Numbered from the stretch's first letter, positions 1 through 10,837 are shown. The stretch: 50,039 bases of DNA from an uncultured bacterium (GCA_964592755.1 CAZQFS010000001.1:41731-91769); one strand, 5' to 3'. Numbers and translations are program-made. Notes: generated by a model not told the origin, from the sequence alone.

Positions 1-1553
1 TCCAGGGGGAGCGGCGGGTCTGGACCTATCGCGCGTTTCGGGAGCAAGTCCTGCCCGAGGCCTATCCCGAGCGTGAACACGTGCCAAAGACCCTCATCTT
101 CGCCAAGGACGACTCCCATGCCGAGGACATCGTCGGCATCGTGCGTGAGGAGTTCGGCAAAGGCGACGACTTCTGCCAGAAAATCACCTATCGCACCGGC
201 TTCATACGCGTGCCCCTCCCCGGGCATGAGTCCGAACCCAACCCGCCACATACCTGGGAGAAGGTGTCGAACGTCTCCGGTGCTGATGTTCTGCGCGTCT
301 TCCGCACGTCCTTCAACCCGCGCATAGCTGTGACCGTAGACATGATTGCCACCGGCACCGACGTGAAGGCGATAGAGGTCCTGGTCTTCATGCGCAACGT
401 CATGTCCGCCGGGTTCTTTGAGCAGATGAAAGGCCGTGGCGTCAGGGTGATGGACCCTGAGAAACTCAAGGCCGTTACCCCGGACGCCATCATCAAAGAC
501 CGCTTCATCATCGTGGACGCAGTCGGCGTCTGCGAGCGAGACAAGACTGAAACCACGCCACTGGAACGCCGGCCCAACGTCTCGCTCAGGAAGCTGCTTG
601 CCTTCGTCGCTGCCGGCGGGACCGAAGAGGACGCCCTCACATCACTTGCCGGCCGGCTGATGCGACTGGACCGGAAGCTGGTTCCAGAACACAAGGATGA
701 ACTCCGCAAGCTGGCCGACGGCAGGAGCCTGTCGGACCTTGCCGGTGCGCTCGTTCGCGCCACCGACCCGGATGAACAAGAGGCTGCCGCCCGAGCCAAC
801 GCCGGGCTTTTGCCAGACCGGCAGCCGACCGAGGAACAGGTAGCCAAGGCCACAAGCGAACTGATGCAGGCGGCGGCAAAGCCCTTTCACGACCCCAAGC
901 TAAGACAACGGCTCGTCGAACTCCACCAGGAATCCGAGCAGGTGATAGACATTGTCTCCGGTGATGAACTGCTCTCCTCGCAACTGGCCAAGGACACCGC
1001 GGAACGCGCCGGTGAGGTCGTGCGCGACTTCCGCGCGTGGATTGAGAAGAACAAGGACGAGATAGAGGCGTTGCAGGTGCTCTACTCCGGCCGGTACGCC
1101 AGCCGGCTCAAGCTCAGCGCCGTGAAAGACCTCGCCCGACAGCTCAAGAACCCTCCGCTAAGCACCAACCCTTCCGAGGTCTGGCATGCCTTTGAGCTCG
1201 TCGAGGGCCGCAAACCCGGCGGGTCCAGAGTTCGGCAGGCCGCCGACTTGATACGGCTCGTGCGCCATGCGCTGGAGCCGTCTGAACCGCTGGCGGCGTT
1301 CGCTGAGACCGTGGCAGAGAGGTACAAGGCCTGGCTTGCCGCGCAGGACATGGCAGGTGTGGAGTTCAACGACCAGCAACGGGAATGGCTGGATAAGATA
1401 GCCGAACACATCGGCAACAGCGTGACCTTCGAGGAAGAGGACTTCGACTACGGCTGGTTCGCCCAGCACGGGCGCCTCGGCAGAGCCAGCCAGCTCTTCG
1501 GCTCAAGGCTGAACGACCTGATTGCCAGCCTGAACGATGAACTGGCCGCATGA
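1..1553 (+). CDS. hsdR: Type I restriction enzyme R subunit (HsdR), C-terminal part; 5' end is outside the window
   Basis: The frame is open from nt 3 (QGERRVWTYRAF...), so the listed GTG at 81 is internal. Helicase C-lobe motifs KTLIFAKDDSHAEDIV and VDMIATGTDVKAIEVLVFMR...MKGRGVR are present. A long helical tail ends ...FGSRLNDLIASLNDELAA, as in EcoEI/COG4096-type HsdR. Same strand as hsdS and hsdM. Confidence 0.85.
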   Translation, partial: QGERRVWTYRAFREQVLPEAYPEREHVPKTLIFAKDDSHAEDIVGIVREEFGKGDDFCQKITYRTGFIRVPLPGHESEPNPPHTWEKVSNVSGADVLRVFRTSFNPRIAVTVDMIATGTDVKAIEVLVFMRNVMSAGFFEQMKGRGVRVMDPEKLKAVTPDAIIKDRFIIVDAVGVCERDKTETTPLERRPNVSLRKLLAFVAAGGTEEDALTSLAGRLMRLDRKLVPEHKDELRKLADGRSLSDLAGALVRATDPDEQEAAARANAGLLPDRQPTEEQVAKATSELMQAAAKPFHDPKLRQRLVELHQESEQVIDIVSGDELLSSQLAKDTAERAGEVVRDFRAWIEKNKDEIEALQVLYSGRYASRLKLSAVKDLARQLKNPPLSTNPSEVWHAFELVEGRKPGGSRVRQAADLIRLVRHALEPSEPLAAFAETVAERYKAWLAAQDMAGVEFNDQQREWLDKIAEHIGNSVTFEEEDFDYGWFAQHGRLGRASQLFGSRLNDLIASLNDELAA

Positions 1554-1657
1554 TTGACACGCCCGGTTCGTGCATGACCAGCAGTCAACCGGCTGCGGTT
1601 AAGAAGCGGCCACCAGATTGATGCGCTCGAGTGTATACCAATTTGTCATCACCTCGC

Positions 1658-1686
1658 TTGACTATATGCCATTTTGGCATTATCAT
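1658..1686 (+). promoter_or_regulatory. Sigma70-like promoter TTGACT-17nt-TATCAT with a 6-3-6 palindrome (ATGCCA TTT TGGCAT, 1666-1680) in the spacer
   Basis: -35 TTGACT at 1658-1663 and -10 TATCAT at 1681-1686, 17-nt spacer, in a locally AT-rich patch of a GC-rich genome. The perfect inverted repeat inside the spacer is a plausible operator for the XRE-type HTH encoded immediately downstream. ATG 1692 lies 5 nt after the -10. Confidence 0.5.
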
Positions 1687-1691
1687 GTTCC

Positions 1692-2864
1692 ATGAGAGGA
1701 CGAGATACCGTGACCGCTAAGTCCGGCATTTCCAGGGCCATAGCCGCGCGTCTGGCCCACGCCCGAACCGAGGCCGGCCTGACCCTGCGCGCCGCAGCCA
1801 AGGAGCTCGGTTTCGACAGCTACCAGACTCTCTCGAAAATCGAGAAGGGAGAACGTCCGGTTCGCGCGACCGAACTCGTGAGTATCGCCCAGCTGTACCA
1901 GCGCAGCGTCGGCTACTTCCTTGCTTCAGAGGCTCCTGTCGCCCGTCCGGCCGTGCTCTGGCGCGGCCGGGCCGACTCCCCGACCCGTCTCAAGGTCGAA
2001 CATCGGTTCCTGCAGTACTGCGAAGACTACGCCCGGCTGGAAGAGCTTGCGGGTCACTCCGCGCCGCGGTTTCCTCTGAAGTGGCCCGAACGTGTCGAAA
2101 GCTTCGGCCAAGCGGAAAGGGCAGCGCAGGCGACCTCGGCGCAGATGGGGCTCGGGCCGTGTCCTGGACCGAGTCTTTCAGATGTGCTAGAGGACAGGTT
2201 CGGCGTCAAGGTCTTGATCACCGACACCGAGGGGGCCGGTTCGGCCGCCTCGGTCATGGATTCCTTCGGCGCAGGGATACTCATCAACCGTCATGAAGCC
2301 CCGTGGCGTATGAACTTCAGCCTGGCGCACGAACTCTTCCATCTTGTTACCTGGGGTATGTTCGAGCCATCTGAGATACACTGCGGCAACGCGAAGACGG
2401 CCCCGGAGAGATTCGCCGACCGCTTCGCGGCGGTGTTGCTGCTGCCGGACACCGCGGTGCGAAGGGAATTCGAGTCAAGGGTCAAGGACAAGGCGCTCTC
2501 CTACATAGACTGCCTGGCGATGGCCCGCGAATTCGGTGTGTCAATCGACGCTATGGTCTGGCGGCTGGCGTCACTTCGGCTGGTGGACCGGAAGTCCGCC
2601 GAAGCAGCCCTCAAGTCGGATAAGTTGCGCGAGTTGAGCAAGACTGAACGACGGGAGGACTGGGCTGACGAACGGGTCCACTCGGGACGCTCGCGCCGCT
2701 TCACGGCCCTGGCAATCGAATGCCTTCTGTCCGGACACGTCTCCCGGGGCAGATTCTCCGAGTTGACGGGCATCAGTCGCGGCAGCATCGACGCCTTCCT
2801 CAAGCTATCCGGGTACGACCCCGCGGGTGACTACGTTGGCGAAATCAGCACTAGTACTGCTTGA
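1692..2864 (+). CDS. XRE-family HTH fused to ImmA/IrrE-type (COG2856) zinc metallopeptidase
   Basis: N-terminal HTH: LTLRAAAKELGFDSYQTLSKIEKGERPVRATELVSIAQLY. HExxH zinc site: SLAHELFHLVTW. This is followed by FAAVLLLPDTAV, typical of COG2856. Start is either ATG 1692 (leaderless relative to the promoter) or GTG 1710 preceded by GAGGA at 1696-1700. The listed TTG 1674 lies inside the promoter. Confidence 0.8.
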   Translation: MRGRDTVTAKSGISRAIAARLAHARTEAGLTLRAAAKELGFDSYQTLSKIEKGERPVRATELVSIAQLYQRSVGYFLASEAPVARPAVLWRGRADSPTRLKVEHRFLQYCEDYARLEELAGHSAPRFPLKWPERVESFGQAERAAQATSAQMGLGPCPGPSLSDVLEDRFGVKVLITDTEGAGSAASVMDSFGAGILINRHEAPWRMNFSLAHELFHLVTWGMFEPSEIHCGNAKTAPERFADRFAAVLLLPDTAVRREFESRVKDKALSYIDCLAMAREFGVSIDAMVWRLASLRLVDRKSAEAALKSDKLRELSKTERREDWADERVHSGRSRRFTALAIECLLSGHVSRGRFSELTGISRGSIDAFLKLSGYDPAGDYVGEISTSTA

Positions 2865-3363
2865 TGCTGATGTGGTCATTGAGGCCTTCCGGCTCGGCAT
2901 CTGGGCTCATCTTGTCACCAAGGCCGACATCTACGTAGCTGCAACCGTGGCCGAGGAGGCGATGCATTACTTCGACCCGGCGACGGGCCAGAGGCGTTAC
3001 ATTGACCTGGCTGCCGAGGTCGGCGGAAAGAGAATCACCATCCTCAACGGCGACGCGACCGAGATGGCGCGCGTGCAGGCCGCCTGCCGTCGGCACTGGG
3101 TGGACCTGGACACAGGAGAACTCGAGTCGATTGCGATTGTGGCCACAGGGTCGTATAGCTTCTGCACTGCCGACCGTGCCGCGGCCGAGGCCATGGCCCT
3201 GCTCGACATGCAGGGCCGAGCCATATCGCTCGAGGAATTCGTCCGCAGGCACGGAATCGCGTCGAGAATCAGCATGAAGCCCTACTACTCTGCAGCGACG
3301 ATGACCAGGTGGCTCAAAGAAGGCGGCATCCTGAAGGCGCAGACGTTCAGGACGAAGCGTTGA
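2827..3363 (+). CDS. PIN-like nuclease domain protein
   Basis: Acidic residues are spaced as in PIN folds: LLDADVVIEA, VAEEAMHY, DLDTGELESIAIV, FCTADRAAAEA. Overlaps the upstream ImmA-HTH gene by 38 nt (GTG 2827; TTG 2836 is an alternative), suggesting translational coupling. Confidence 0.6.
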   Translation: MTTLAKSALVLLDADVVIEAFRLGIWAHLVTKADIYVAATVAEEAMHYFDPATGQRRYIDLAAEVGGKRITILNGDATEMARVQAACRRHWVDLDTGELESIAIVATGSYSFCTADRAAAEAMALLDMQGRAISLEEFVRRHGIASRISMKPYYSAATMTRWLKEGGILKAQTFRTKR

Positions 3364-3371
3364 TAGCGCAG

Positions 3372-3443
3372 AGCGTCACGTCGCTCTTCGGCTCCGAGTT
3401 CTACGAGCTGATGGCCAGCATGCCCGAGACACTGGCCGCATGA
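3372..3443 (+). pseudogene. Relic of a second hsdR 3' end (last about 23 codons plus stop)
   Basis: Translates to SVTSLFGSEFYELMASMPETLAA*, against the resident hsdR end ASQLFGSRLNDLIASLNDELAA* (1485-1553). By hand alignment 50 of 69 nt are identical, including the shared terminal 12-mer ctggccgcatga. The relic stop overlaps the ATG of the next gene (ATGA at 3440-3443). Confidence 0.55.
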
Positions 3444-4138
3444 GCGTCACGCTGGAGTTCAAGACAGTCGCCTACGACTCGGTTGCACTCCCTTTGGGGT
3501 TCCCCGACATTCACACGTCCGACGCCATAACTGCGCAGCAGGAGGCTGCCGTGGTGCAGTGGCTACTCGGCCGCAGCCCGGCCAAGGGACTTGTCATGTC
3601 TGAACTGAAACTGAGCGAAGACGTGTCCTTCTGGCCGGCAGTGGCTGAGCCCGTAACAGACCTGCACCGAAAGCCCGGTGACGTAGACGCGCTACTGTGC
3701 GGAAGGGACAGTCCGCACACAGCGACCGCAGTTGAAGCGAAATGCGTGAAGGTCGTCGCGGTGGCCGTTGGGCAGGACCGTGTGAACCGGCTTGGCAAAC
3801 TCTCGAAAGCGGTCCAGCAGGTGAACGGCCTCCGGGACATGGGCTTCCACGAATCGTATCTTGCGGTCCTGTGTCTCGTGGACGCGCAGGAGCGGCTCGA
3901 GCCAAACACCGTGTTCCGCGAGATGTCGCCCAAAACCCTTTCGCGTGTATACGACTTTCCCTGTCGTGATGACCTGCACCGAGAGGTCGGGTTTCTGATA
4001 GTCGAGATAGCCCAGCCTACTGCCAAGGGCTTCAACCGAATGGCCAACATCAATGTATGCCGCGTCCAAGCCGCCATAGCGCAAGACCAACCTATAGAAT
4101 TGACCAACCGCATTGCGGAGTACGTCAAGTATCACTGA
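3440..4138 (+). CDS. Hypothetical protein with PD-(D/E)xK nuclease-like motif
   Basis: 232-aa ORF with an ATG start. Candidate restriction-endonuclease-fold core GDVDALLC...(11 aa)...AVEAKCVKV (D ... E-x-K). The 3' end overlaps the hsdS start by 26 nt. Confidence 0.55.
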   Translation: MSVTLEFKTVAYDSVALPLGFPDIHTSDAITAQQEAAVVQWLLGRSPAKGLVMSELKLSEDVSFWPAVAEPVTDLHRKPGDVDALLCGRDSPHTATAVEAKCVKVVAVAVGQDRVNRLGKLSKAVQQVNGLRDMGFHESYLAVLCLVDAQERLEPNTVFREMSPKTLSRVYDFPCRDDLHREVGFLIVEIAQPTAKGFNRMANINVCRVQAAIAQDQPIELTNRIAEYVKYH

Positions 4139-5654
4139 GGCCGGCGGCCGGCCACTGCCCCCCGGCTGGGCGCGGACGACTCTGGGCGAGGTCGCTACGC
4201 TGAACCCCAAGCCAAGGAGCCTGCCCGCGGATGGTGCCAGCCCGGTGACCTTTGTCCCGATGTCCGCAGTAGGCGTGGAGCACGGCGGCATTGCCCGGCC
4301 AGAGGTGAGGCGACTGGACCAAGTCCGACGAGGTTACACCCCGTGTCAGTCCGGTGATGTATTGTTCGCCAAGATAACGCCCTGCATGGAGAACGGAAAG
4401 GTGGCCGTCGTACCGGAGAGCCTAGTCGGTGGCATCGGGTTCGGCTCGACCGAGTTTGTGGTGCTACGCCCCAGAGACGGAATCGAGCCGCGCTGGCTGA
4501 GTCGGTTCCTATCGCAGACGTCCTTCCGACGCCGCGCGAGACGGGCCATGACGGGTGCGGTCGGACAGCAGCGCGTTCCGAAGGACTTCATAGCGACCGA
4601 GTCGCTTCGCATCGCGCCCTACCGGGAGCAGCAGCGTATCGCGGACAAGATTGACGAGCTATTCTCAGACCTTGATGCCGGAGTGAAGGCGCTGGGGCGG
4701 GTGAAGAAGAACCTGGAACGCTATCGGGCGTCGGTGCTCAAAGCCGCAGTCGAAGGTCGGCTCACAGCGGATTGGCGCAAGGCGCATCCCAATGTTGAAT
4801 CAGCAACCGAACTCCTGAAGCGCATCCTCAAGGAGCGTCGCAAGCGTTGGGAAGAGGCCCAACTCGCCAGGTACCAAGCCAAAGGCAGACAGCCTCCCAA
4901 AGGCTGGCAGGCGAAGTACAAGGAACCCGCCCCGCCCGACACATCCGAGCTTCCCTCGCTGCCCGAAGGCTGGTGCTGGGCGACGGTGGACATGCTTGGC
5001 GTCGTGTCCGGTGGCCTAACCAAGAACCCAAGTCGTGATTCAGCCCCCAGACGGATGCCATACCTGCGAGTGGCCAACGTCTACGCCGACCGCTTGGCAC
5101 TCGACGACGTCAAGCTGATTGGGGTCTTCGACAGAGAACTGCCGGGTGTGCTCGTTGAGTCAGGCGATCTGCTGGTAGTAGAGGGAAATGGCAGCAAAGA
5201 CCAGATTGGGAGAGTTGCCACTTGGGACGGGAGCGTAAGACCATGCGCTCACCAGAACCACATCATCAAGGTGAGGTTTCTGTTGCCCGAGTTGGGTCGG
5301 TATGTGCAGGACTGGTTGCTCTCGGTACCGGGCAGGCGGCGCGTCGAGAAAGCGGCCAGTTCCACATCGGGACTTTACACGCTGAGCATTTCCAAGGTGC
5401 AGTCGCTTCAAGTTCCTCTCCCTCCCTTGCAGGAGATACTGGCCATCCGCGACGAGGTCGAGAGAAACACGTCTCTTCTGGTTTCCGACGCCACCGTGGC
5501 TGAGACTACGCTGCGCCGCACAGGCGCCCTCCGCCAAGCCATCCTCAAACGGGCCTTTGAGGGACGACTCGTGCCCCAGGACCCGAACGACGAGCCCGCT
5601 GAGAAGCTGCTGGAGAGGATTCGGGCTGAAAGGCGAACCGCCAGTGCGAGATAA
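4113..5654 (+). CDS. hsdS: Type I restriction-modification specificity subunit (HsdS)
   Basis: Two target-recognition halves each begin with the typical LPxGW motif (LPPGWARTTLGEV; LPEGWCWATVDML). They are separated by conserved helical spacers (REQQRIADKIDELFSDLDAGVKAL...; LQEILAIRDEVERN...ILKRAFEGRLV). Only TTG 4113 is available as a start upstream of the first motif. Confidence 0.85.
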   Translation: MRSTSSITEAGGRPLPPGWARTTLGEVATLNPKPRSLPADGASPVTFVPMSAVGVEHGGIARPEVRRLDQVRRGYTPCQSGDVLFAKITPCMENGKVAVVPESLVGGIGFGSTEFVVLRPRDGIEPRWLSRFLSQTSFRRRARRAMTGAVGQQRVPKDFIATESLRIAPYREQQRIADKIDELFSDLDAGVKALGRVKKNLERYRASVLKAAVEGRLTADWRKAHPNVESATELLKRILKERRKRWEEAQLARYQAKGRQPPKGWQAKYKEPAPPDTSELPSLPEGWCWATVDMLGVVSGGLTKNPSRDSAPRRMPYLRVANVYADRLALDDVKLIGVFDRELPGVLVESGDLLVVEGNGSKDQIGRVATWDGSVRPCAHQNHIIKVRFLLPELGRYVQDWLLSVPGRRRVEKAASSTSGLYTLSISKVQSLQVPLPPLQEILAIRDEVERNTSLLVSDATVAETTLRRTGALRQAILKRAFEGRLVPQDPNDEPAEKLLERIRAERRTASAR

Positions 5655-7113
5655 CACCGTTCCCGCCGCAGAGTCAGTCATCGACGTATTCCTTTCCTAC
5701 ACCAGAGCGGACAAGGACTGGGTTCGGGGGCTGGCAGAACGGCTTGAGTCGGAGACCATTGACGGCACCAGGACGGGACGACCAATCAGAGTCTTCTTCG
5801 ATGAATGGGACATAGATGTCGGTGAGAATGTCGTGGTCCACGTCAATGCGGGGCTTGAGAAAGCTCGTTTCACGGCAGTCGTAGTATCACCGGACATGCT
5901 TGGTGCGGATTGGCCGACATACGAATGGACTGCCGTGGTCGCCAGCGACCCTGTGAACCGCGACAAACGCCTCATTCCACTGTTCCTCCGCGACGGCTCC
6001 GAGAAAGGGGGCAACCGCATCGAATTGCCTGCGCCGTTTCGGGTTCTGAACTGGATCGACTTCCGCCGCAAGCAGGACCACAAACGTTCGCTTCAGCGTC
6101 TTCTTCGTCGGATCAGAAGCCTGCCCCCGGCCCGCGGGCGCAGGCTTCCGCCGCTCGCGTATGTCACCCCTGCCGCGCCGGTGCCTTCACCAGAGCGAGA
6201 CACACCGGCTGAAGCCGACACAATACAGGAGGTCGTTCTCAGCAATCTTCTTCCTGTCGAGAGCTATCCTGGCGCAATCTGGAGTGCCCCGACGTCCGCC
6301 CGACAGCGAAGCGACGTCACATCCGAGGCCCCGGACGTGCCGGCATTCGAACTTCGAGAGCAGCGTCTGTACACGTTCACCGATTTGACCCGCCCAGAGG
6401 GTCCGTTTGCGCCGTTCGTGGATAGGGCTGCGGCACACAGCAATGCCGTCTCAAGCTGGATGGGTGATGATGCCCGCTGGCGCTGGTTTATTGCCTTGCT
6501 TAATCGGTGCCTAAGGCTGCATCTCAGGGGGCTGCCAGTCAGACAAGACGAAAAGGGGCGCTTCGTCTTCCTGTCCGACAATGGGGCTACGCGGAAGTGG
6601 TCGTGGGGTCCCGGGCGCAGACGAGAACGCGAGGTTGCCGCAAGAAAGTCCAATCCGGTCACGGGGCAGGAGTTCTGGGTACACCACGGCTCACGCTTGC
6701 GATTCCAGACACTGGGCGACAAGCTGTTCCTTCTTGTAGACCCCTGCTATGTGTTCACGTCAGATGGCATGCAGCCTCTATACAGCCGGGTTGTAGGGCC
6801 GTTGTCGGTGAAGTGGACCGGCCGAGAACGTAACGCGTCCATCTTGCGCCACGTGACGTTCTGGTCTCGGTTTCTGAGTCGCGGCCGGCGGAGGGTGCAA
6901 ATCGAGACCGGGGCAACACCGATAACCTTGTCCTGCGTCCCGGCGCTTGCTCGAACTCAGCGCGGGATAGAGTTCGACCACGTAGGGTTCCAGAACCTCA
7001 TCGACCAGGTCGACGACGAATTGGGCGCGGTTGCCGCCAGCGTCATGGCGTCTGACGCTCAAGGGACTCATGTTTTCGATAATGACGTGCCGGAGGCAGA
7101 TGAGACCACATAG
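5644..7113 (+). CDS. TIR-APAZ protein (SPARTA-type partner of short pAgo)
   Basis: N-terminal TIR: VIDVFLSYTRADKDW, RVFFDEWDIDVGE, AVVVSPDMLGADWPTYEWTAVV (candidate catalytic Glu), LIPLFLRD, LNWIDFRR. About 300 aa of APAZ-sized C-terminal region follow. Sits directly upstream of a short pAgo, as in SPARTA operons. Preferred start is GTG 5644 (GAAAGG 10 nt upstream), overlapping the hsdS stop by 11 nt. The listed TTG 5557 would overlap hsdS by 98 nt. Confidence 0.75.
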   Translation: MRDNTVPAAESVIDVFLSYTRADKDWVRGLAERLESETIDGTRTGRPIRVFFDEWDIDVGENVVVHVNAGLEKARFTAVVVSPDMLGADWPTYEWTAVVASDPVNRDKRLIPLFLRDGSEKGGNRIELPAPFRVLNWIDFRRKQDHKRSLQRLLRRIRSLPPARGRRLPPLAYVTPAAPVPSPERDTPAEADTIQEVVLSNLLPVESYPGAIWSAPTSARQRSDVTSEAPDVPAFELREQRLYTFTDLTRPEGPFAPFVDRAAAHSNAVSSWMGDDARWRWFIALLNRCLRLHLRGLPVRQDEKGRFVFLSDNGATRKWSWGPGRRREREVAARKSNPVTGQEFWVHHGSRLRFQTLGDKLFLLVDPCYVFTSDGMQPLYSRVVGPLSVKWTGRERNASILRHVTFWSRFLSRGRRRVQIETGATPITLSCVPALARTQRGIEFDHVGFQNLIDQVDDELGAVAASVMASDAQGTHVFDNDVPEADETT

Positions 7114-8707
7114 GAGATTCAACACACAGGGCCAGTCCGACGTCTCCCGCGGCGATCTTCTCCAGCAGAAGTTGCTCCGGGACGCCACACCGTCGTTTCA
7201 TTGCTGGCACGTCGCGGAACCAAAGCTGATATTTGCGGATGGACATAGGTGCGAGGACCCCAAGACCGGGCTTACCCTGTATGGGCCAGCCGGATTGGGC
7301 AAGGGCGCACGGTCATCGATTCGGCTCGGGATTATCGGTACGGGAGAAACAGTCCAAATGGTCCGCAACTGGCTCAAGCTGGCAGAGCACAGGATTACTG
7401 CGGGCAGGGACAAGAAAGGCAGGGCCTACGACCCGCTGTTGTCCCCAGACTTCCCCGGGTTCGGTGCTTACCCGCCATTCCACTGTGAAGTCGAGTTGGC
7501 TGACCAACACTGTGTCACCGTGCCGGGAAGGGAGTTCGAGCGCGTTGCCGAACCGGAGGAACTGGGCGCACGCATCAGTCGAGCCATTGAGGTTGTGGCG
7601 GCTCGTCTAGAATCTCTGGCCACAATTGAGCACTCGCCAGACGTAGTCTTGTGCGCGATGCCCAATGTTGTCGACTTGGCCTGTGGTCCCCAACGCGTAC
7701 GCGCTCCTCGGCCGGTCGCGATCACACCGTTCCAGAAGGCCGTCCGGAAACTTCGGCGGAAGGCCGCGAAGCTCGGGCAGTTGGCAATGGACCTTCGTCT
7801 TCCTGAAACCGGTGACGAAGACATGGAACACTGGGACTTCCACAATGCACTCAAGGTGAGAGCCATGCGATTTCGGCTGCCTACCCAGTTGGTCTGGGAG
7901 AGCACACTGACAGGGGCAAAATCGACGCAGGACCCTGCCACGATCGCTTGGAACCTGCTTGTCGCCCTCTACTACAAAGCAGGCAATCTACCTTGGCAAT
8001 TGGACTTTGGAGCCTCAGGCACGTGCTTTGTGGGCGTCACGTTCTACCGAGAAGGACCGGATCCGCAAGCACCTACGAGAATCAGCCTTGCTCAGGTGTA
8101 TTCCGAGGCAGGCGACGGTCTTGTACTGAAGGGCGAGCCAGTGCTGTGGGACCAGAAGCGCGACCGGCGGCCGCATCTTACCAGGGACACGGCCGAGACA
8201 CTCCTTACACGGGCAATCAGGTTGTACGAGCAGCACTACGACCGGGCACCAACGAGAGTAGTGGTGCACAAGACATCCCGCTATTGGCCCGAGGAGCTCG
8301 ATGGCTTCCGAGGTGCGCTTGACGCTATTCGCTCATACGACCTGCTGACTCTTGAGCAACGAGGTATCAGGTTTCTCCGTCTGGGCACCGAGCCACCCCT
8401 GCGCGGAACCGTAGTTCAGTTGGCGAACCGCGACTATCTCGTGTACACTCACGGATACGTGCCGTTTCTCAAGTGTTACCCCGGCATGCGGATTCCCAAT
8501 CCGATCGAGGTGGTAGAGCACCACGGGGATTCGGACGCCGAGCGGGTCTGTAGCGAGATACTCGCCTTGACCAAGCTCAATTGGAACAACTGCAGCTATG
8601 GCAGCGCTGACCCCGTGACAATCGCCTTCTCGCAACAGGTCGGCAGGATTTTGACGGAACTACCCGGCGGGGTTACGCCCGCGACCAATTACCGCTTCTA
8701 CATGTAG
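7100..8707 (+). CDS. Short prokaryotic Argonaute (MID-PIWI only, catalytically inactive)
   Basis: From memory, closely resembles characterised SPARTA Agos: AEPKLIFADGHRCEDPKTGLTLYGP, DFHNALKVRAMRFRLPTQLV (H..K MID motif), TIAWNLLVALYYKAGNLPWQL, ILALTKLNWNNCSYGSADPVTIAFSQQVGRILT, C-terminal YRFYM. PIWI catalytic positions are substituted (CFVGVTFY instead of GxD; VVVHKTSRY). Start is ATG 7100 (GGAGG at 7092-7096, overlaps the upstream stop by 14 nt) or TTG 7172, which better matches homologue N-termini. Confidence 0.8.
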   Translation: MRPHRRFNTQGQSDVSRGDLLQQKLLRDATPSFHCWHVAEPKLIFADGHRCEDPKTGLTLYGPAGLGKGARSSIRLGIIGTGETVQMVRNWLKLAEHRITAGRDKKGRAYDPLLSPDFPGFGAYPPFHCEVELADQHCVTVPGREFERVAEPEELGARISRAIEVVAARLESLATIEHSPDVVLCAMPNVVDLACGPQRVRAPRPVAITPFQKAVRKLRRKAAKLGQLAMDLRLPETGDEDMEHWDFHNALKVRAMRFRLPTQLVWESTLTGAKSTQDPATIAWNLLVALYYKAGNLPWQLDFGASGTCFVGVTFYREGPDPQAPTRISLAQVYSEAGDGLVLKGEPVLWDQKRDRRPHLTRDTAETLLTRAIRLYEQHYDRAPTRVVVHKTSRYWPEELDGFRGALDAIRSYDLLTLEQRGIRFLRLGTEPPLRGTVVQLANRDYLVYTHGYVPFLKCYPGMRIPNPIEVVEHHGDSDAERVCSEILALTKLNWNNCSYGSADPVTIAFSQQVGRILTELPGGVTPATNYRFYM

Positions 8708-8708
8708 C

Positions 8709-10211
8709 ATGAATTCATCACAAATCGGCACCCGGGTCTGGAACATGGCCACCGTGTTGAAGAGCGATGGGCTGAGCTACATGGAGTACGTAGGCCAGAT
8801 TACCTATCTGCTGTTCCTGAAGATGGCGCATGAGCTGACCCAGGCCCCGTACAACCGGCCGAACGTCATCCCGCCGGACAAAGATGGCAACCCGCTGGGT
8901 TGGCCGGAATTGCTGAAGCGCGACGGCGCGGACTTGGCCACGTTCTACGAACATACCCTGACCGAGTTGGGCCGGAAGAAAGGCATGCTCGGCGCCATCT
9001 TCCTGAACGCGAAGAGCGCAATCAAGGACCCGGCCAAGCTCAGGCGGCTTATCGTTGACCTTTTTGAGAAGCAGGAAGGCGGCTGGGTAAGCATGGACGT
9101 GGACGTGAAGGGCGCTATCTATGAGGAGTTGCTCAATCGGACTGCGGCCGAGTCACCTTCCGGCGCGGGCCAGTATTTCACGCCCCGCGAGCTCATCAGG
9201 GCCATAGTGGACGTGATGCAGCCGAAACCCACTGACACTATCTGCGACCCGGCCGCGGGCACCGGCGGATTCCTGCTGATTGCCTATGAATACGTGGTCA
9301 GCCAATACGGGTCAGCGATGGACCGGGACGCCCAGAAGCAGGTGCAGGAGCGCCTCATCAGCGGCATGGAACTGGTGCCGGACACGGGTAGGCTATGCGT
9401 GATGAACCTGTACCTACACACCATTGGTGGAGACGAAACCACCGTCCTGGTTGGTCACGACAGCCTGGCCCAGCCTGCACCCACGACTTATTCGATGGTC
9501 CTGACCAATCCGCCTTTTGGCCGGAAGGGCAGCATCATCACCGTAGACGACGAGGGCGAGCTTGAGCGCGAGCGGCAGGTGGTGAACCGACCCGACTTCT
9601 GGCAGGAGACGACGAACAAGCAGTTGAACTTCCTGCAGCACGTCTACACCATGCTCAAGGTGGACGGCCGGGCCGCAATTGTCCTGCCTGACAACGTGCT
9701 ATTCGAGGGCGGGGCCGGGGAGAAAATCCGGCGCAGGCTGCTTTCGACCTGTGATGTTCACACGCTCCTGCGCCTGCCCACCGGCATCTTCTACAAGCCC
9801 GGGGTGAAGGCCAACGTGCTCTTCTTTGACAAGCGGCCCGGTTCGGAGAAGCCGTGGACCACCAAGCTCTGGGTTTATGACCTGCGGACGAACAAGCACT
9901 TCACCTTGAAGCAGAACCCAATCACGCGGGATGACTTCAACGAGTTTGTGGACTGTTGCCGGCCGGGCGAACGGCATCTGCGGACGCCGACCTGGAGTGA
10001 GGAGAACCCGGAAGGCCGCTGGCGGTGCTTTGACTACGAGGAGTTGCAGAAGCGCGACAAGCTGAGCCTCGACCTCTTCTGGCTCAAGGACAAGAGCCTC
10101 GAGGACTCCGAGAACCTGCCCGAGCCCGAAGTCATCGCCGCCGAGATAGCGGACGACCTGCAAGAAGCCCTCGACCAATTCCGCAGCATTGCGAAGGACC
10201 TGGAGCAGTAG
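8709..10211 (+). CDS. hsdM: Type I restriction-modification N6-adenine DNA methyltransferase subunit (HsdM)
   Basis: HsdM N-terminal helix region (YVGQITYLLFLKMAHE), SAM-binding ICDPAAGTGGFLL, catalytic motif IV LTNPPFGRKG. ATG 8709 lies 1 nt after the pAgo stop codon (TAG 8705-8707). Confidence 0.9.
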   Translation: MNSSQIGTRVWNMATVLKSDGLSYMEYVGQITYLLFLKMAHELTQAPYNRPNVIPPDKDGNPLGWPELLKRDGADLATFYEHTLTELGRKKGMLGAIFLNAKSAIKDPAKLRRLIVDLFEKQEGGWVSMDVDVKGAIYEELLNRTAAESPSGAGQYFTPRELIRAIVDVMQPKPTDTICDPAAGTGGFLLIAYEYVVSQYGSAMDRDAQKQVQERLISGMELVPDTGRLCVMNLYLHTIGGDETTVLVGHDSLAQPAPTTYSMVLTNPPFGRKGSIITVDDEGELERERQVVNRPDFWQETTNKQLNFLQHVYTMLKVDGRAAIVLPDNVLFEGGAGEKIRRRLLSTCDVHTLLRLPTGIFYKPGVKANVLFFDKRPGSEKPWTTKLWVYDLRTNKHFTLKQNPITRDDFNEFVDCCRPGERHLRTPTWSEENPEGRWRCFDYEELQKRDKLSLDLFWLKDKSLEDSENLPEPEVIAAEIADDLQEALDQFRSIAKDLEQ

Positions 10212-10415
10212 TCCGGCTTCTCGTTCTTTCCCGAACTCACCCACACTTTCCCCCGTCCGGCTCAGGCCCGAAGTGCGCATGATAGGTGAGGTCAGATTGC
10301 TCTTTGACAACTTGTCTTGTGCACAACCGCGGGCCGGGCAGCCAGGCCCGCGGTAGCGACGGCCGGCCGGTTGCGGCCCGGCCGGCCACCGCCGCAGAAA
10401 GGAGGTGGAAACACC

Positions 10416-10790
10416 ATGAGCGACCCGACAAAGCGCATCGCCAACTGGGACGCCGGCTACGACACCTCGGCCATCAAGGCCAAGGTGGATAAGAAGCGGC
10501 CGGACATGCTCTCCCGGGTGCAGGCTCAGTTTCCTGCCATTTCCTCGATGGAGGGGCAGGTGAAGCAGGTGCTCGACCTGGCGGGCTCAACGGTCATCGA
10601 ATACCCGTTTTACCTGAGCTTCGCACGCGAGTTGTGGAGCATGACCCACGAGCGGGAAATCTCCGGCGAGGCTGCGGCGGTCGAGGCTGAGACCCTCATC
10701 GTGAAATGGGTGGCCCGCGGACTGACGCGCAGCGTGCTGGAGAACATCCGCACCGGCGTGTTCAACATCGCGCCGCCTTCATCGCCGTAA
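10416..10790 (+). CDS. Hypothetical small protein (124 aa)
   Basis: ATG 10416 is preceded by a strong SD (AAAGGAGGTG, 10398-10407). The listed start at 10317 runs through GC-rich hairpins. No recognisable domain. Confidence 0.5.
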   Translation: MSDPTKRIANWDAGYDTSAIKAKVDKKRPDMLSRVQAQFPAISSMEGQVKQVLDLAGSTVIEYPFYLSFARELWSMTHEREISGEAAAVEAETLIVKWVARGLTRSVLENIRTGVFNIAPPSSP

Positions 10791-10807
10791 GGCGAAGCAA
10801 GGACAAC

Positions 10808-10837
10808 GGCGGCAGAGAGGGCTGCATCTCTGCCGCC
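10808..10837. terminator. 11-bp GC-rich hairpin between convergent genes (bidirectional terminator candidate)
   Basis: GGCGGCAGAGA (10808-10818), loop gggctgca, TCTCTGCCGCC (10827-10837). Lies between the end of the 10416-10790 CDS and the 3' end of rnpB. No strong U-tract. Confidence 0.45.

What the first reader, a model, noticed from the sequence alone, without database searches (positions are those of the whole stretch)
5644..8707. SPARTA-type TIR-APAZ plus catalytically dead short pAgo
The 5644-7113 product starts with a TIR domain (DVFLSYTRADKDW, FFDEWDIDVGE, DWPTYEWTAVV with a conserved-position Glu). It continues with an APAZ-sized region.

The 7100-8707 product has only MID and PIWI. 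It has an H..K-type 5'-end pocket motif (DFHNALKVRAM...PTQLV). PIWI active-site positions are replaced (VGVTF, VHKTS).

Several blocks are close to what I recall of experimentally studied SPARTA Agos, notably ILALTKLNWNNCSYGSADPVTIAFSQQVGRILT and the C-terminal YRFYM.

Both start codons are unusual. TIR-APAZ has no in-frame ATG before the TIR core, so it must use GTG 5644 or an upstream TTG. The pAgo has either a 39-aa N-terminal extension (ATG 7100) or a TTG start (7172).
Basis: partly seen in the sequence, partly recalled or inferred. Interest (0 to 1): 0.7.

Follow-up and report, generated by a model that had tools for sequence, protein, structure and literature searches.

The report
TIR-armed short Argonaute defence pair
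Two overlapping genes encode a catalytically dead short Argonaute and a TIR-APAZ partner that most likely kill or arrest the cell by destroying NAD+ when invading DNA is detected. The pair belongs to the little-studied TIR branch of the nuclease-associated S2B Argonaute clade, not to the well-studied SPARTA clade, and it sits inside a type I restriction-modification operon.

Summary
Positions 5644-7113 encode a 489-aa TIR-APAZ protein. Positions 7100-8707 encode a 535-aa MID-PIWI-only Argonaute that lacks the catalytic tetrad. Both proposed start codons (GTG 5644, ATG 7100) are supported by homologues and by an independent gene call.

The domain architecture, and probably the working principle, are those of SPARTA: guide RNA plus target DNA causes oligomerisation, which switches on the TIR NADase.

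The pair is not a member of the canonical SPARTA clade S2A. The Argonaute and the APAZ domain are closest to the HNH- and DREN-nuclease systems SPARHA and SPARDA (clade S2B). Family profiles do not detect canonical SPARTA TIR-APAZ proteins. The TIR is an AbTir-like TIR_2 domain with an invariant Trp-x3-Glu motif (W90, E94).

One published phylogeny mentions a "subgroup of TIR effectors" in S2B. I found no experimental study of it.

The pair is nested between hsdS and hsdM of a type I R-M operon, with overlapping or abutting reading frames. Two diverged genomes conserve this arrangement.

Verdict: a new member of a known but uncharacterised subgroup, of moderate interest.

The parts
5644..7113 (+). 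TIR-APAZ effector gene (489 aa, GTG start, overlaps the hsdS stop by 11 nt)
   Evidence: (identical 489-aa protein P0001). The AF2 model has pLDDT 79.8, and its whole-chain fold matches SPARTA TIR-APAZ chains.
5680..6114 (+). TIR domain (about residues 13-157), TIR_2 / AbTir-like. W90 is at 5911-5913 and the predicted catalytic E94 at 5923-5925.
   Evidence: Pfam TIR_2 at 3e-24. AbTIR chains at 1e-9 with DW..YE aligned. E94 is invariant and W90 at least 90% conserved in 52 homologues. Codons checked.
6199..7008 (+). APAZ domain (about residues 186-455), S2B type
   Evidence: PADLOC Aga_REase-PNTD1-PNTD2 at 8.9e-37. Profile against PDB: HNH-APAZ 3.5e-46, DUF4365-APAZ 6e-20. Foldseek match to 9om4_A: 28% identity, TMt 0.78. 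In the APAZ tree the S2B grouping has 94% support.
7009..7110 (+). [quoted passage not shown]
   Evidence: The last 35 residues hold 9 D/E and 0 K/R here. The family mean is 12.3 D/E against 1.2 K/R, n=52. The analogy is the acidic tail of BabSPARTA, which occupies the nucleic-acid cleft (PMC10899771). The function here is inferred.
7092..7096 (+). GGAGG ribosome-binding box, 3 nt before the pAgo ATG and inside the end of the TIR-APAZ gene (translational coupling)
   Evidence: Read from the sequence.
7100..8707 (+). Short pAgo gene (535 aa, ATG start, 14-nt overlap with TIR-APAZ). MID and PIWI only; PIWI is inactive.
7100..7216 (+). Family-specific basic N-terminal extension of the pAgo (residues 1-39, predicted helix 17-28)
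   Evidence: Present in all 44 aligned family members: median 39 aa before the conserved EP, 7.8 K/R against 3.3 D/E. Reference short pAgos have 0-17 aa. Helix taken from the model. Function unknown.
7841..7978 (+). MID 5'-end binding pocket: H248 (7841-7843), K252 (7853-7855), Q263 (7886-7888), K293 (7976-7978)
   Evidence: K252, Q263 and K293 are invariant and H248 at least 90% conserved. They align with TtAgo R418, K422, Q433 and K457 and with FHDQLK...PTQ of BabAgo.
8033..8278 (+). PIWI positions of the lost catalytic tetrad: GVTFY (8033-8047) opposite TtAgo D478, and HKTS (8267-8278) with T392 opposite TtAgo D546
   Evidence: hhalign of the family profile against TtAgo from pTT27. The same substitutions are seen in all family members and reference short pAgos.
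4113..5654 (+). hsdS, type I R-M specificity subunit, immediately upstream and overlapping
   Evidence: PADLOC Specificity_I at 5.5e-154 over residues 14-510. Pfam Methylase_S.
8709..10211 (+). hsdM, type I R-M methyltransferase. Its ATG starts 1 nt after the pAgo stop.
   Evidence: PADLOC MTase_I at 1.8e-175. Pfam N6_Mtase at 1.8e-62. Junction read.
1..1553 (+). 3' part of hsdR, cut by the window edge
   Evidence: The frame is open from base 3. Pfam EcoEI_R_C at 2.8e-33. NCBIfam type I endonuclease PRK11448 at 6.6e-40. The orthologues in L024 and L031 are 919 aa.

Best explanation
This is a two-gene short prokaryotic Argonaute defence system of clade S2B whose effector is a TIR NADase.

Shown by sequence and models:
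- A 489-aa protein carries an AbTir-like TIR domain (W90, E94), an S2B-type APAZ domain and an acidic tail.
- It is translationally coupled to a 535-aa MID-PIWI Argonaute. That protein keeps the 5'-phosphate pocket (H248, K252, Q263, K293 and the C-terminal Met) and has lost the DEDX nuclease site.

Inferred from characterised relatives (SPARTA, SPARDA, SPARHA):
- The two proteins form a 1:1 heterodimer that loads 5'-phosphorylated small RNAs from the transcriptome.
- In the resting state the acidic tail fills the nucleic-acid cleft and the TIR is held inactive.
- Pairing of the guide with single-stranded DNA of a high-copy invader displaces the tail and rearranges the PIWI sensor loops.
- This exposes Ago-Ago contacts and drives oligomerisation.
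- Clustered TIR domains then form composite active sites around E94 and consume NAD(P)+, causing growth arrest or death of the infected cell (abortive infection).

Not known: whether the active assembly is a tetramer, as in S2A SPARTA, or a filament, as in its closer relatives SPARHA and SPARDA; and whether the product is ADPR or a cyclic ADPR isomer.

The pair is co-transcribed with, and nested in, a type I R-M operon (hsdR ... hsdS, TIR-APAZ, pAgo, hsdM). I read this as a two-layer defence cassette inherited as one unit.
For: Domain identity.

Fold:
- The TIR-APAZ model matches whole SPARTA TIR-APAZ chains (E 5e-17, about 480-530 aligned columns).
- Its APAZ matches SPARHA at 28% identity and TMt 0.78.
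- The pAgo model matches SPARDA, SPARHA and SPARTA Agos at TMt 0.81-0.88.

Catalytic and binding residues:
- E94 is invariant and W90 is conserved.
- The MID pocket is conserved.
- The tetrad is lost.
- The acidic tail is conserved, with the BabSPARTA precedent.

Gene pairing: all 29 related genome loci examined carry the pAgo, or the part of it that their contig or assembly retains (partial in L025 and L033, split in L016), directly downstream of the TIR-APAZ on the same strand.

Clade placement:
- Bit scores run SPARHA > SPARDA > SPARTA > SPARSA.
- The closest plasmid relatives have DUF4365, SMEK or SIR2 partners, at no more than 36% identity.
- NJ trees.
- Profile tests.
- Literature: a 'subgroup of TIR effectors' in S2B (10.1101/2023.06.08.544223).

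Mechanism precedents.

Operon:
- ORFs overlap or abut, and there is no + strand terminator-like site between 4113 and 10200.
- The same hsdR-hsdS-TIR-APAZ-pAgo-hsdM order occurs in L024 and L031, at 57-62% identity for the pair and 46-58% for the Hsd proteins.
Against: - There are no biochemical data for any member of this TIR subgroup, so every mechanistic step after 'the proteins exist with intact motifs' is by analogy.
- The trees are neighbour-joining on modest taxon sets, and the PDB references are partial sequences rebuilt from HMMER alignments. The deep S2B node has only 54% support in the pAgo tree, against 94% in the APAZ tree.
- The nearest solved TIR relatives (AbTir, TcpB) are cyclase-type TIRs, so the product and the downstream logic could differ from SPARTA.
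- E94 was aligned to AbTIR, not directly to MapTIR-APAZ E77.
- The MID motif is H..K, as in many SPARTA Agos, whereas SPARHA and SPARDA have R..K. Guide preferences may therefore differ.
- The conserved basic N-terminal extension of the pAgo has no counterpart in any studied system.
Confidence: 0.75

Rival explanations
1. It is a canonical SPARTA system, a member of clade S2A orthologous to MapSPARTA, CrtSPARTA and BabSPARTA.
For: It has the same two-gene order and the same TIR-APAZ plus MID-PIWI architecture. Whole-chain Foldseek hits to SPARTA TIR-APAZ chains rank at the top. It shares with S2A Agos an H..K MID motif and a long MID insertion.
Against: - The S2A clade has 100% support and excludes this family in both the pAgo tree and the APAZ tree.
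- SPARTA Agos score about 95 bits lower than the SPARHA Ago.
- The family profile finds no S2A TIR-APAZ among four plasmid examples. Among solved SPARTA chains it finds only a marginal hit to CrtTIR-APAZ 8z92_E (3.7e-4). It hits HNH-APAZ at 3.5e-46.
- Identity to SPARTA TIR-APAZ in the structural alignment is only 13-16%, against 28% to the SPARHA APAZ.
Confidence: 0.05
2. The TIR domain is a signal-producing cyclase. On activation it would make a cyclic ADPR isomer, as AbTir and Thoeris ThsB do, and that isomer would switch on a separate effector. NAD+ depletion would not be the killing step.
For: The closest solved TIR relatives are AbTIR, a related TIR protein and TcpB/BtpA-type proteins. 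PADLOC also gives weak ThsB-like and PDC-S66 TIR hits.
Against: No candidate receptor gene (SLOG/ThsA-like, SAVED or similar) is conserved next to the pair. The only recurrent neighbours in 30 loci are type I R-M genes. Every characterised pAgo-linked TIR or SIR2 effector acts by NAD+ depletion.
Confidence: 0.08
3. The pair is mechanistically coupled to the type I R-M enzyme it is nested in, rather than being an independent second defence layer. For example, it might sense restriction products, or act only when restriction or methylation fails.
For: - The nested order hsdS, TIR-APAZ, pAgo, hsdM has coupled reading frames, and two other genomes keep it despite about 40% protein divergence.
- In L006 the pair directly follows hsdS.
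- Type I R-M genes lie within 10 kb in 8 of 29 family loci against 0 of 49 TIR-only control loci, p = 1.8e-4.
- An S2B SIR2-APAZ/pAgo on a Mesorhizobium plasmid is also followed by hsdS-hsdM-hsdS.
Against: - 21 of 29 family loci have no detectable type I R-M gene nearby, and where one is present the arrangement varies: nested, adjacent, several genes away, or convergent.
- Embedding unrelated, independently acting defence genes in type I R-M operons is a documented general pattern (TgvAB, PrrC).
- Studied short pAgo systems work alone in E. coli.
- The control set comes from other phyla, and detection used this window's own Hsd proteins.
Confidence: 0.1
4. The genes are decaying remnants without function.
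For: Nothing specific. There are only the unusual GTG start and a Pfam Piwi score below threshold (E 0.048).
Against: Both ORFs are full length. All diagnostic residues are intact and conserved across a family that spans Planctomycetota, Verrucomicrobiota, Myxococcota, Bdellovibrionota, Gemmatimonadota and an archaeon. Both models are confident.
Confidence: 0.02

Closest known systems
SPARTA (short pAgo / TIR-APAZ, clade S2A: MapSPARTA, CrtSPARTA, BabSPARTA)
   Same: - The gene order is the same: TIR-APAZ, then pAgo.
- The domain architecture is the same at fold level.
- It has a TIR with a conserved Glu, an acidic C-terminal tail on the APAZ protein, an H..K MID pocket and an inactive PIWI.
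- The expected output is NAD(P)+ loss after RNA-guided DNA recognition.
   Different: - It belongs to a different clade for both the pAgo and the APAZ.
- Its TIR is so diverged that family profiles do not cross-detect.
- The pAgo is 22-25% identical and the TIR-APAZ 13-16% identical to SPARTA counterparts.
- The pAgo has an extra basic N-terminal extension.
- The oligomeric state is unknown.
SPARHA (short pAgo / HNH-APAZ, AcaSPARHA, PDB 9om4)
   Same: It is the closest solved relative of both the pAgo (5.9e-81) and the APAZ (profile 3.5e-46, 28% identity, TMt 0.78). It belongs to the same S2B assemblage.
   Different: - Its effector is an HNH DNase, not a TIR.
- Its MID motif is R..K, not H..K.
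- It lacks the long MID insertion and the N-terminal extension.
- SPARHA is activated as a filament (PMC12738770). Whether this system forms filaments is untested.
SPARDA (short pAgo / DREN(DUF4365)-APAZ; Xau, Eae, Nba)
   Same: The pAgo is 28-33% identical at TMt 0.85-0.88. APAZ profile hits range from 6e-20 to 6e-15. The best plasmid relatives carry DUF4365 partners.
   Different: Its effector is a PD-(D/E)xK nuclease, it degrades DNA and RNA collaterally, and its activation by filament assembly is documented.
S2B 'subgroup of TIR effectors' noted by phylogeny (10.1101/2023.06.08.544223)
   Same: It matches the description: TIR fused to an S2B-clade APAZ and partnered with a short pAgo.
   Different: The paper gives only a one-line mention. 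I could not check that its sequences are this family, and I found no functional or structural work on the subgroup.
AbTir / TcpB-type bacterial TIR NADases (PDB 7uwg, 8g83, 4lqc)
   Same: They are the closest solved TIR domains and share the W-x3-E motif.
   Different: They are stand-alone or coiled-coil virulence or defence proteins, not APAZ fusions. As I recall, they make cyclic ADPR isomers; this was not checked here.
Defence genes embedded in type I R-M operons (TgvAB in Vibrio cholerae VPI-2, PrrC; 'guilt by embedding')
   Same: A second defence module is inserted between hsd genes and transcribed with them.
   Different: The embedded module here is a short pAgo system. The text I searched in those papers does not list a short pAgo as an embedded module.

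Membership tests
Short pAgo system (short pAgo plus APAZ partner) | The Argonaute consists of MID and PIWI only (no N or PAZ domains) | tested here: met
   At 535 aa it aligns end to end with 471-507-aa solved short pAgos. PADLOC pAgo_I at 1.4e-148. Model TMt 0.81-0.88 to short pAgos.
Short pAgo system (short pAgo plus APAZ partner) | The PIWI lacks the DEDX catalytic tetrad | tested here: met
   TtAgo D546 aligns with T392. There is no Asp opposite D478 (GVTFY) and nothing acidic opposite D660. The same holds across the family.
Short pAgo system (short pAgo plus APAZ partner) | An adjacent gene encodes an effector domain fused to APAZ | tested here: met
   The gene directly upstream overlaps the pAgo by 14 nt. 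APAZ is detected by PADLOC, by PDB sequence and profile searches, and by fold.
Short pAgo system (short pAgo plus APAZ partner) | The two proteins form a stable heterodimer | not testable with these tools
   Only single-chain prediction was available. It is inferred from translational coupling and homology.
SPARTA in the strict sense (clade S2A) | The pAgo falls in phylogenetic clade S2A | tested here: not met
   In the NJ tree, S2A (BabAgo plus four plasmid Agos with TIR partners) has 100% support and excludes the window and its family. Bit scores to SPARTA Agos are about 180, against 276 for SPARHA.
SPARTA in the strict sense (clade S2A) | The TIR-APAZ partner is homologous in sequence to S2A TIR-APAZ | tested here: not met
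   The family profile gives no hit to four S2A TIR-APAZ proteins at E up to 10. In the PDB only 8z92_E (CrtTIR-APAZ) is hit, at 3.7e-4. The APAZ tree separates them, 100% against 94%. Similarity exists only at fold level.
SPARTA in the strict sense (clade S2A) | The TIR domain has the catalytic glutamate | tested here: met
   E94 is invariant in 52 homologues and aligns with the Glu of the AbTIR W-x3-E string. It was not aligned directly with MapTIR-APAZ E77.
SPARTA in the strict sense (clade S2A) | NAD(P)ase activity dependent on guide RNA and target ssDNA, with tetramerisation | not testable with these tools
   This needs biochemistry and structural work.
Clade S2B short pAgo systems, TIR subgroup | The pAgo groups with S2B references (SPARHA, SPARDA, SMEK- and SIR2-associated) | tested here: met
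   Best PDB and plasmid relatives. The NJ tree groups it with them outside S2A, but that deep node has only 54% support.
Clade S2B short pAgo systems, TIR subgroup | The APAZ groups with S2B APAZ domains | tested here: met
   The profile hits HNH-, DUF4365-, DREN-, SMEK- and SIR2-APAZ. In the APAZ NJ tree the S2B node has 94% support.
Clade S2B short pAgo systems, TIR subgroup | The N-terminal effector is a TIR domain | tested here: met
   Pfam TIR_2 at 3e-24. The same holds for all listed homologues.
Type I restriction-modification system (context) | hsdS, hsdM and hsdR are present and intact | tested here: inconclusive
   hsdS and hsdM are full length. hsdR is cut by the window edge: only its C-terminal 516 codons are visible. 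Activity is not testable here.

The most novel reading that the evidence does not exclude
A TIR NADase was grafted independently onto the filament-forming S2B Argonaute scaffold. On that reading this system would be activated as a pAgo-nucleated TIR filament rather than as the SPARTA tetramer. Its conserved nesting between hsdS and hsdM would reflect a functional two-layer unit with the type I R-M enzyme, in which abortive infection is triggered when restriction fails. The family-specific basic N-terminal extension of the pAgo would be part of this distinct activation or assembly mode.
Probability: 0.2. Interest if true: 0.7.

Novelty: new member of a known kind. Interest (0 to 1): 0.45.

Why it matters
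Short pAgo systems are now a model for how nucleic-acid recognition is converted into effector oligomerisation. S2A SPARTA forms tetramers, while the S2B nuclease systems form filaments.

A natural chimera with a SPARTA-like effector on an S2B scaffold can test whether the Argonaute scaffold or the effector dictates the assembly mode. TIR domains themselves need head-to-tail arrays to become active, which makes the test informative.

The family is sizeable: about 140 TIR-APAZ homologues in the database searched, across at least five bacterial phyla and one archaeal MAG. In the literature I could search, it is untouched experimentally.

The conserved embedding in a type I R-M operon adds a concrete case for studying how layered defences are co-inherited and co-expressed.

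For annotation, genome pipelines that label any TIR-APAZ plus short pAgo pair as 'SPARTA' merge two independent lineages.

Tried and rejected
- Pfam on the pAgo gave no hit at E <= 0.01 and only a sub-threshold Piwi match at E 0.048. Identity therefore rests on PADLOC, the PDB and fold comparison.
- The first bootstrap run with Biopython timed out. I replaced it with a numpy NJ bootstrap.
- I searched for sequence similarity to canonical SPARTA TIR-APAZ with a single sequence and with a family profile, at permissive thresholds. Apart from one marginal hit there was none, which became evidence in itself.
- A plasmid search for close relatives found nothing above 36% identity. It did supply annotated reference pairs for the trees.
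- L029, a TIR-only match at 56% identity, looked like a possible case of the same TIR in another context. It has no intact ORF there and sits among repeats, so I dropped it.
- I considered checking conservation of the SPARDA and SPARHA filament-interface residues. I did not pursue it, because interface residues are unlikely to be informative at about 30% identity.
- Literature searches for an experimentally studied S2B TIR system found none.
- The neighbouring ORFs without family hits (2827-3363, 3440-4138, 10317-10790) stayed unassigned after Pfam, PADLOC and NCBIfam.

Full report
**What is in the sequence**

The + strand between 4113 and 10211 carries four tightly packed ORFs:
- hsdS, 4113-5654
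- a 489-aa ORF from GTG 5644 to 7113
- a 535-aa ORF from ATG 7100 to 8707
- hsdM, 8709-10211

The junctions are an 11-nt overlap, a 14-nt overlap and a 1-nt gap. A GGAGG box lies 3 nt before the ATG at 7100. No + strand terminator-like site lies between 4113 and 10200, and one sits at the hsdM stop.

Upstream lie the 3' part of hsdR, cut by the window edge, and three further ORFs.

**The effector protein**
- Residues 15-154 match Pfam TIR_2 at 3e-24.
- The rest matches PADLOC APAZ (PNTD1-PNTD2) models. The best of these is a restriction-endonuclease-APAZ model at 8.9e-37.
- Against solved structures, the single sequence hits the HNH-APAZ of SPARHA (9om4_A, 4.4e-26), DUF4365/DREN-APAZ of SPARDA, and AbTIR-type TIR domains. 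It hits no SPARTA TIR-APAZ chain.
- A profile of 52 homologues sharpens this: HNH-APAZ 3.5e-46, DUF4365-APAZ about 1e-19, DREN-APAZ 6e-15, AbTIR 4e-16. The only SPARTA chain hit is CrtTIR-APAZ 8z92_E, at 3.7e-4.
- The alignment shows an invariant E94 within W90-x3-E94. This aligns with the DWTNYE string of AbTIR.
- The C-terminal tail is strongly acidic: a family mean of 12.3 D/E against 1.2 K/R in the last 35 residues. It recalls the autoinhibitory tail described for BabSPARTA (PMC10899771).
- The AlphaFold model (pLDDT 79.8) matches whole SPARTA TIR-APAZ chains at fold level (E 5e-17, 13-16% identity). Its APAZ half matches SPARHA best (28% identity, TMt 0.78) and then SPARDA.

**The Argonaute**
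- PADLOC pAgo_I scores 1.4e-148.
- PDB sequence hits rank as follows:
  - SPARHA Ago, 5.9e-81 (276 bits)
  - SPARDA Agos, 250-222 bits
  - SPARTA Agos, about 180 bits
  - a further 'Piwi domain protein' chain (8in8_C), which I take to be the GsSir2/Ago Argonaute although this identity was not checked, 102 bits
- The model (pLDDT 82.7, pTM 0.80) gives the same order by identity: 28-33% for SPARDA and SPARHA, 22-25% for SPARTA. TM-scores are 0.81-0.88 throughout.
- I fetched TtAgo from plasmid pTT27 and aligned it to the family profile. H248, K252, Q263 and K293 correspond to the TtAgo 5'-phosphate pocket R418, K422, Q433 and K457. D546 corresponds to T392. No Asp lies opposite D478 and nothing acidic lies opposite D660.
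- The PIWI is therefore inactive and the guide pocket is intact.

**Start codons**
- The database holds an identical 489-aa TIR-APAZ, and homologues begin 10-14 residues before the DVFL core.
- For the pAgo, an independent gene call gives 535 aa.
- All 44 aligned homologues carry a basic N-terminal extension. The codon at 7172 (TTG) encodes a nearly invariant internal Leu.
- ATG 7100 is therefore the start.

**Which clade**

SPARTA was defined as clade S2A. S2B holds APAZ fused to various other domains (PMC9097488).

I rebuilt reference sets from PDB alignments. I added plasmid loci whose partners are annotated as TIR, SIR2, SMEK or DUF4365.
- In an NJ tree of pAgos (529 columns, 200 bootstraps, S1B outgroup), the S2A references form a 100% clade that excludes the window.
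- The window and 24 family members lie with SPARHA, SPARDA, and SMEK- and SIR2-associated Agos. That deep node is weak, at 54%.
- The APAZ tree is clearer: S2A TIR-APAZ 100%, and S2B including this family 94%.
- A family HMM detects the DUF4365-, SMEK-, Nostoc- and SIR2-APAZ partners but none of the four S2A TIR-APAZ proteins.
- This agrees with one published statement that S2B contains 'a subgroup of TIR effectors', suggesting effector exchange between clades (10.1101/2023.06.08.544223).
- I found no functional or structural study of that subgroup.

**Distribution and context**
- The protein search returned about 140 TIR-APAZ homologues at 37-58% identity.
- A genome scan returned about 30 full or partial loci. 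They come from Planctomycetota, Verrucomicrobiota, Myxococcota, Bdellovibrionota, Gemmatimonadota and one Thermoplasmata MAG.
- In all of them the pAgo follows the TIR-APAZ on the same strand.
- The only other recurrent neighbours are type I R-M genes. An HsdM-like gene lies within 10 kb in 8 of 29 loci, against 0 of 49 TIR-only control loci, p = 1.8e-4. This control is rough and phylogenetically biased.
- The window's closest relatives, L024 and L031, are sisters at 88-90% bootstrap. They share the exact nested order hsdR, hsdS, TIR-APAZ, pAgo, hsdM, although their proteins are only 46-62% identical to those of the window.
- In L006 the pair directly follows hsdS, and in L001 it lies three genes downstream.
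- Embedding of independent defence modules in type I R-M operons is a documented pattern (TgvAB, PrrC). I therefore read the nesting as co-inheritance of two defence layers, not as proof of coupling.

**Mechanism**

By homology with SPARTA, SPARDA and SPARHA, the most likely scheme is:
1. The two proteins form a heterodimer loaded with 5'-P guide RNA.
2. The acidic tail and TIR docking keep it off.
3. Target ssDNA binding moves the PIWI sensor loops and exposes Ago-Ago surfaces.
4. Oligomerisation brings TIR domains together.
5. NAD(P)+ is consumed through E94, and the infected cell stops growing.

What is shown here is the presence and conservation of every element this scheme needs. The activity, the guide and target types, the product, and the choice between tetramer and filament are all inferred or open.

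**Verdict**

The system belongs to the uncharacterised TIR branch of clade S2B, not to canonical SPARTA.

It is a new member of a subgroup already noticed in one phylogeny. Three features are worth following up:
- an independently acquired AbTir-like TIR
- a family-specific basic N-terminal extension on the Argonaute
- conserved nesting in a type I R-M operon

Noticed in passing
window 1674-4138: A second cassette is embedded in the same R-M operon, between hsdR and hsdS. It holds an XRE-HTH plus M78/IrrE-peptidase fusion (1674-2864), with a promoter-like site at 1658-1686. Two ORFs without any family hit follow (2827-3363, 3440-4138). The 3440-4138 product contains a PD-(D/E)xK-like string (GDVDALL...AVEAKCVK), seen by eye only. 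L031 lacks the cassette, and L024 has a different 199-aa ORF there.
   Followed up: partly
window 7100-7216 (pAgo residues 1-39): All 44 aligned family pAgos carry a basic, poorly conserved N-terminal extension. It ends in a semi-conserved helix (residues 17-28 here). Reference short pAgos of S1B, S2A and S2B have only 0-17 residues before the conserved EP motif. Its function is unknown.
   Followed up: partly
window 7664-7840 (pAgo residues 189-246): The MID insertion between P188 and F247 is 53-69 aa in S2-clade Agos paired with NADase effectors. These are the S2A TIR references, the Mesorhizobium S2B SIR2 partner, and most of this family (42-44 aa in the Myxococcota/Bdellovibrionota branch). 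It is about 15-41 aa in Agos paired with nucleases. The sample is small, and the S1B SIR2 reference, at 13 aa, does not fit.
   Followed up: partly
L082 (Mesorhizobium plasmid NZ_CP083953.1) 441-7464: An S2B-like SIR2-APAZ (853 aa) plus short pAgo pair is followed directly by hsdS, hsdM and hsdS genes. This is another short pAgo system sitting next to a type I R-M module.
   Followed up: no
L001 5273-9933; L006 6957-8252: In related Planctomycetota loci, further same-strand ORFs sit between the type I R-M genes and the TIR-APAZ/pAgo pair. In L001 they are 517, 272 and 701 aa, and in L006 431 aa. They were not annotated and may be additional embedded defence genes.
   Followed up: no
L027 (Thermoplasmata archaeon MAG) 262-3238: A complete TIR-APAZ plus pAgo pair of this family (32-36% identity) occurs on a 5.4-kb contig binned to an archaeon. 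This means either inter-domain transfer or a binning error.
   Followed up: no
window 10317-10837: A 157-aa ORF without any family hit follows hsdM. A strong hairpin (11 pairs, 8 G-C) on the - strand at 10808-10837 follows it and may mark the end of the island.
   Followed up: no
L029 10001-10591: A TIR-plus-linker segment 56% identical to residues 5-201 of the window protein lies in a Planctomycetales contig. It has no intact ORF, no APAZ and no pAgo, and it sits among repetitive sequence. It is probably a decayed copy.
   Followed up: partly
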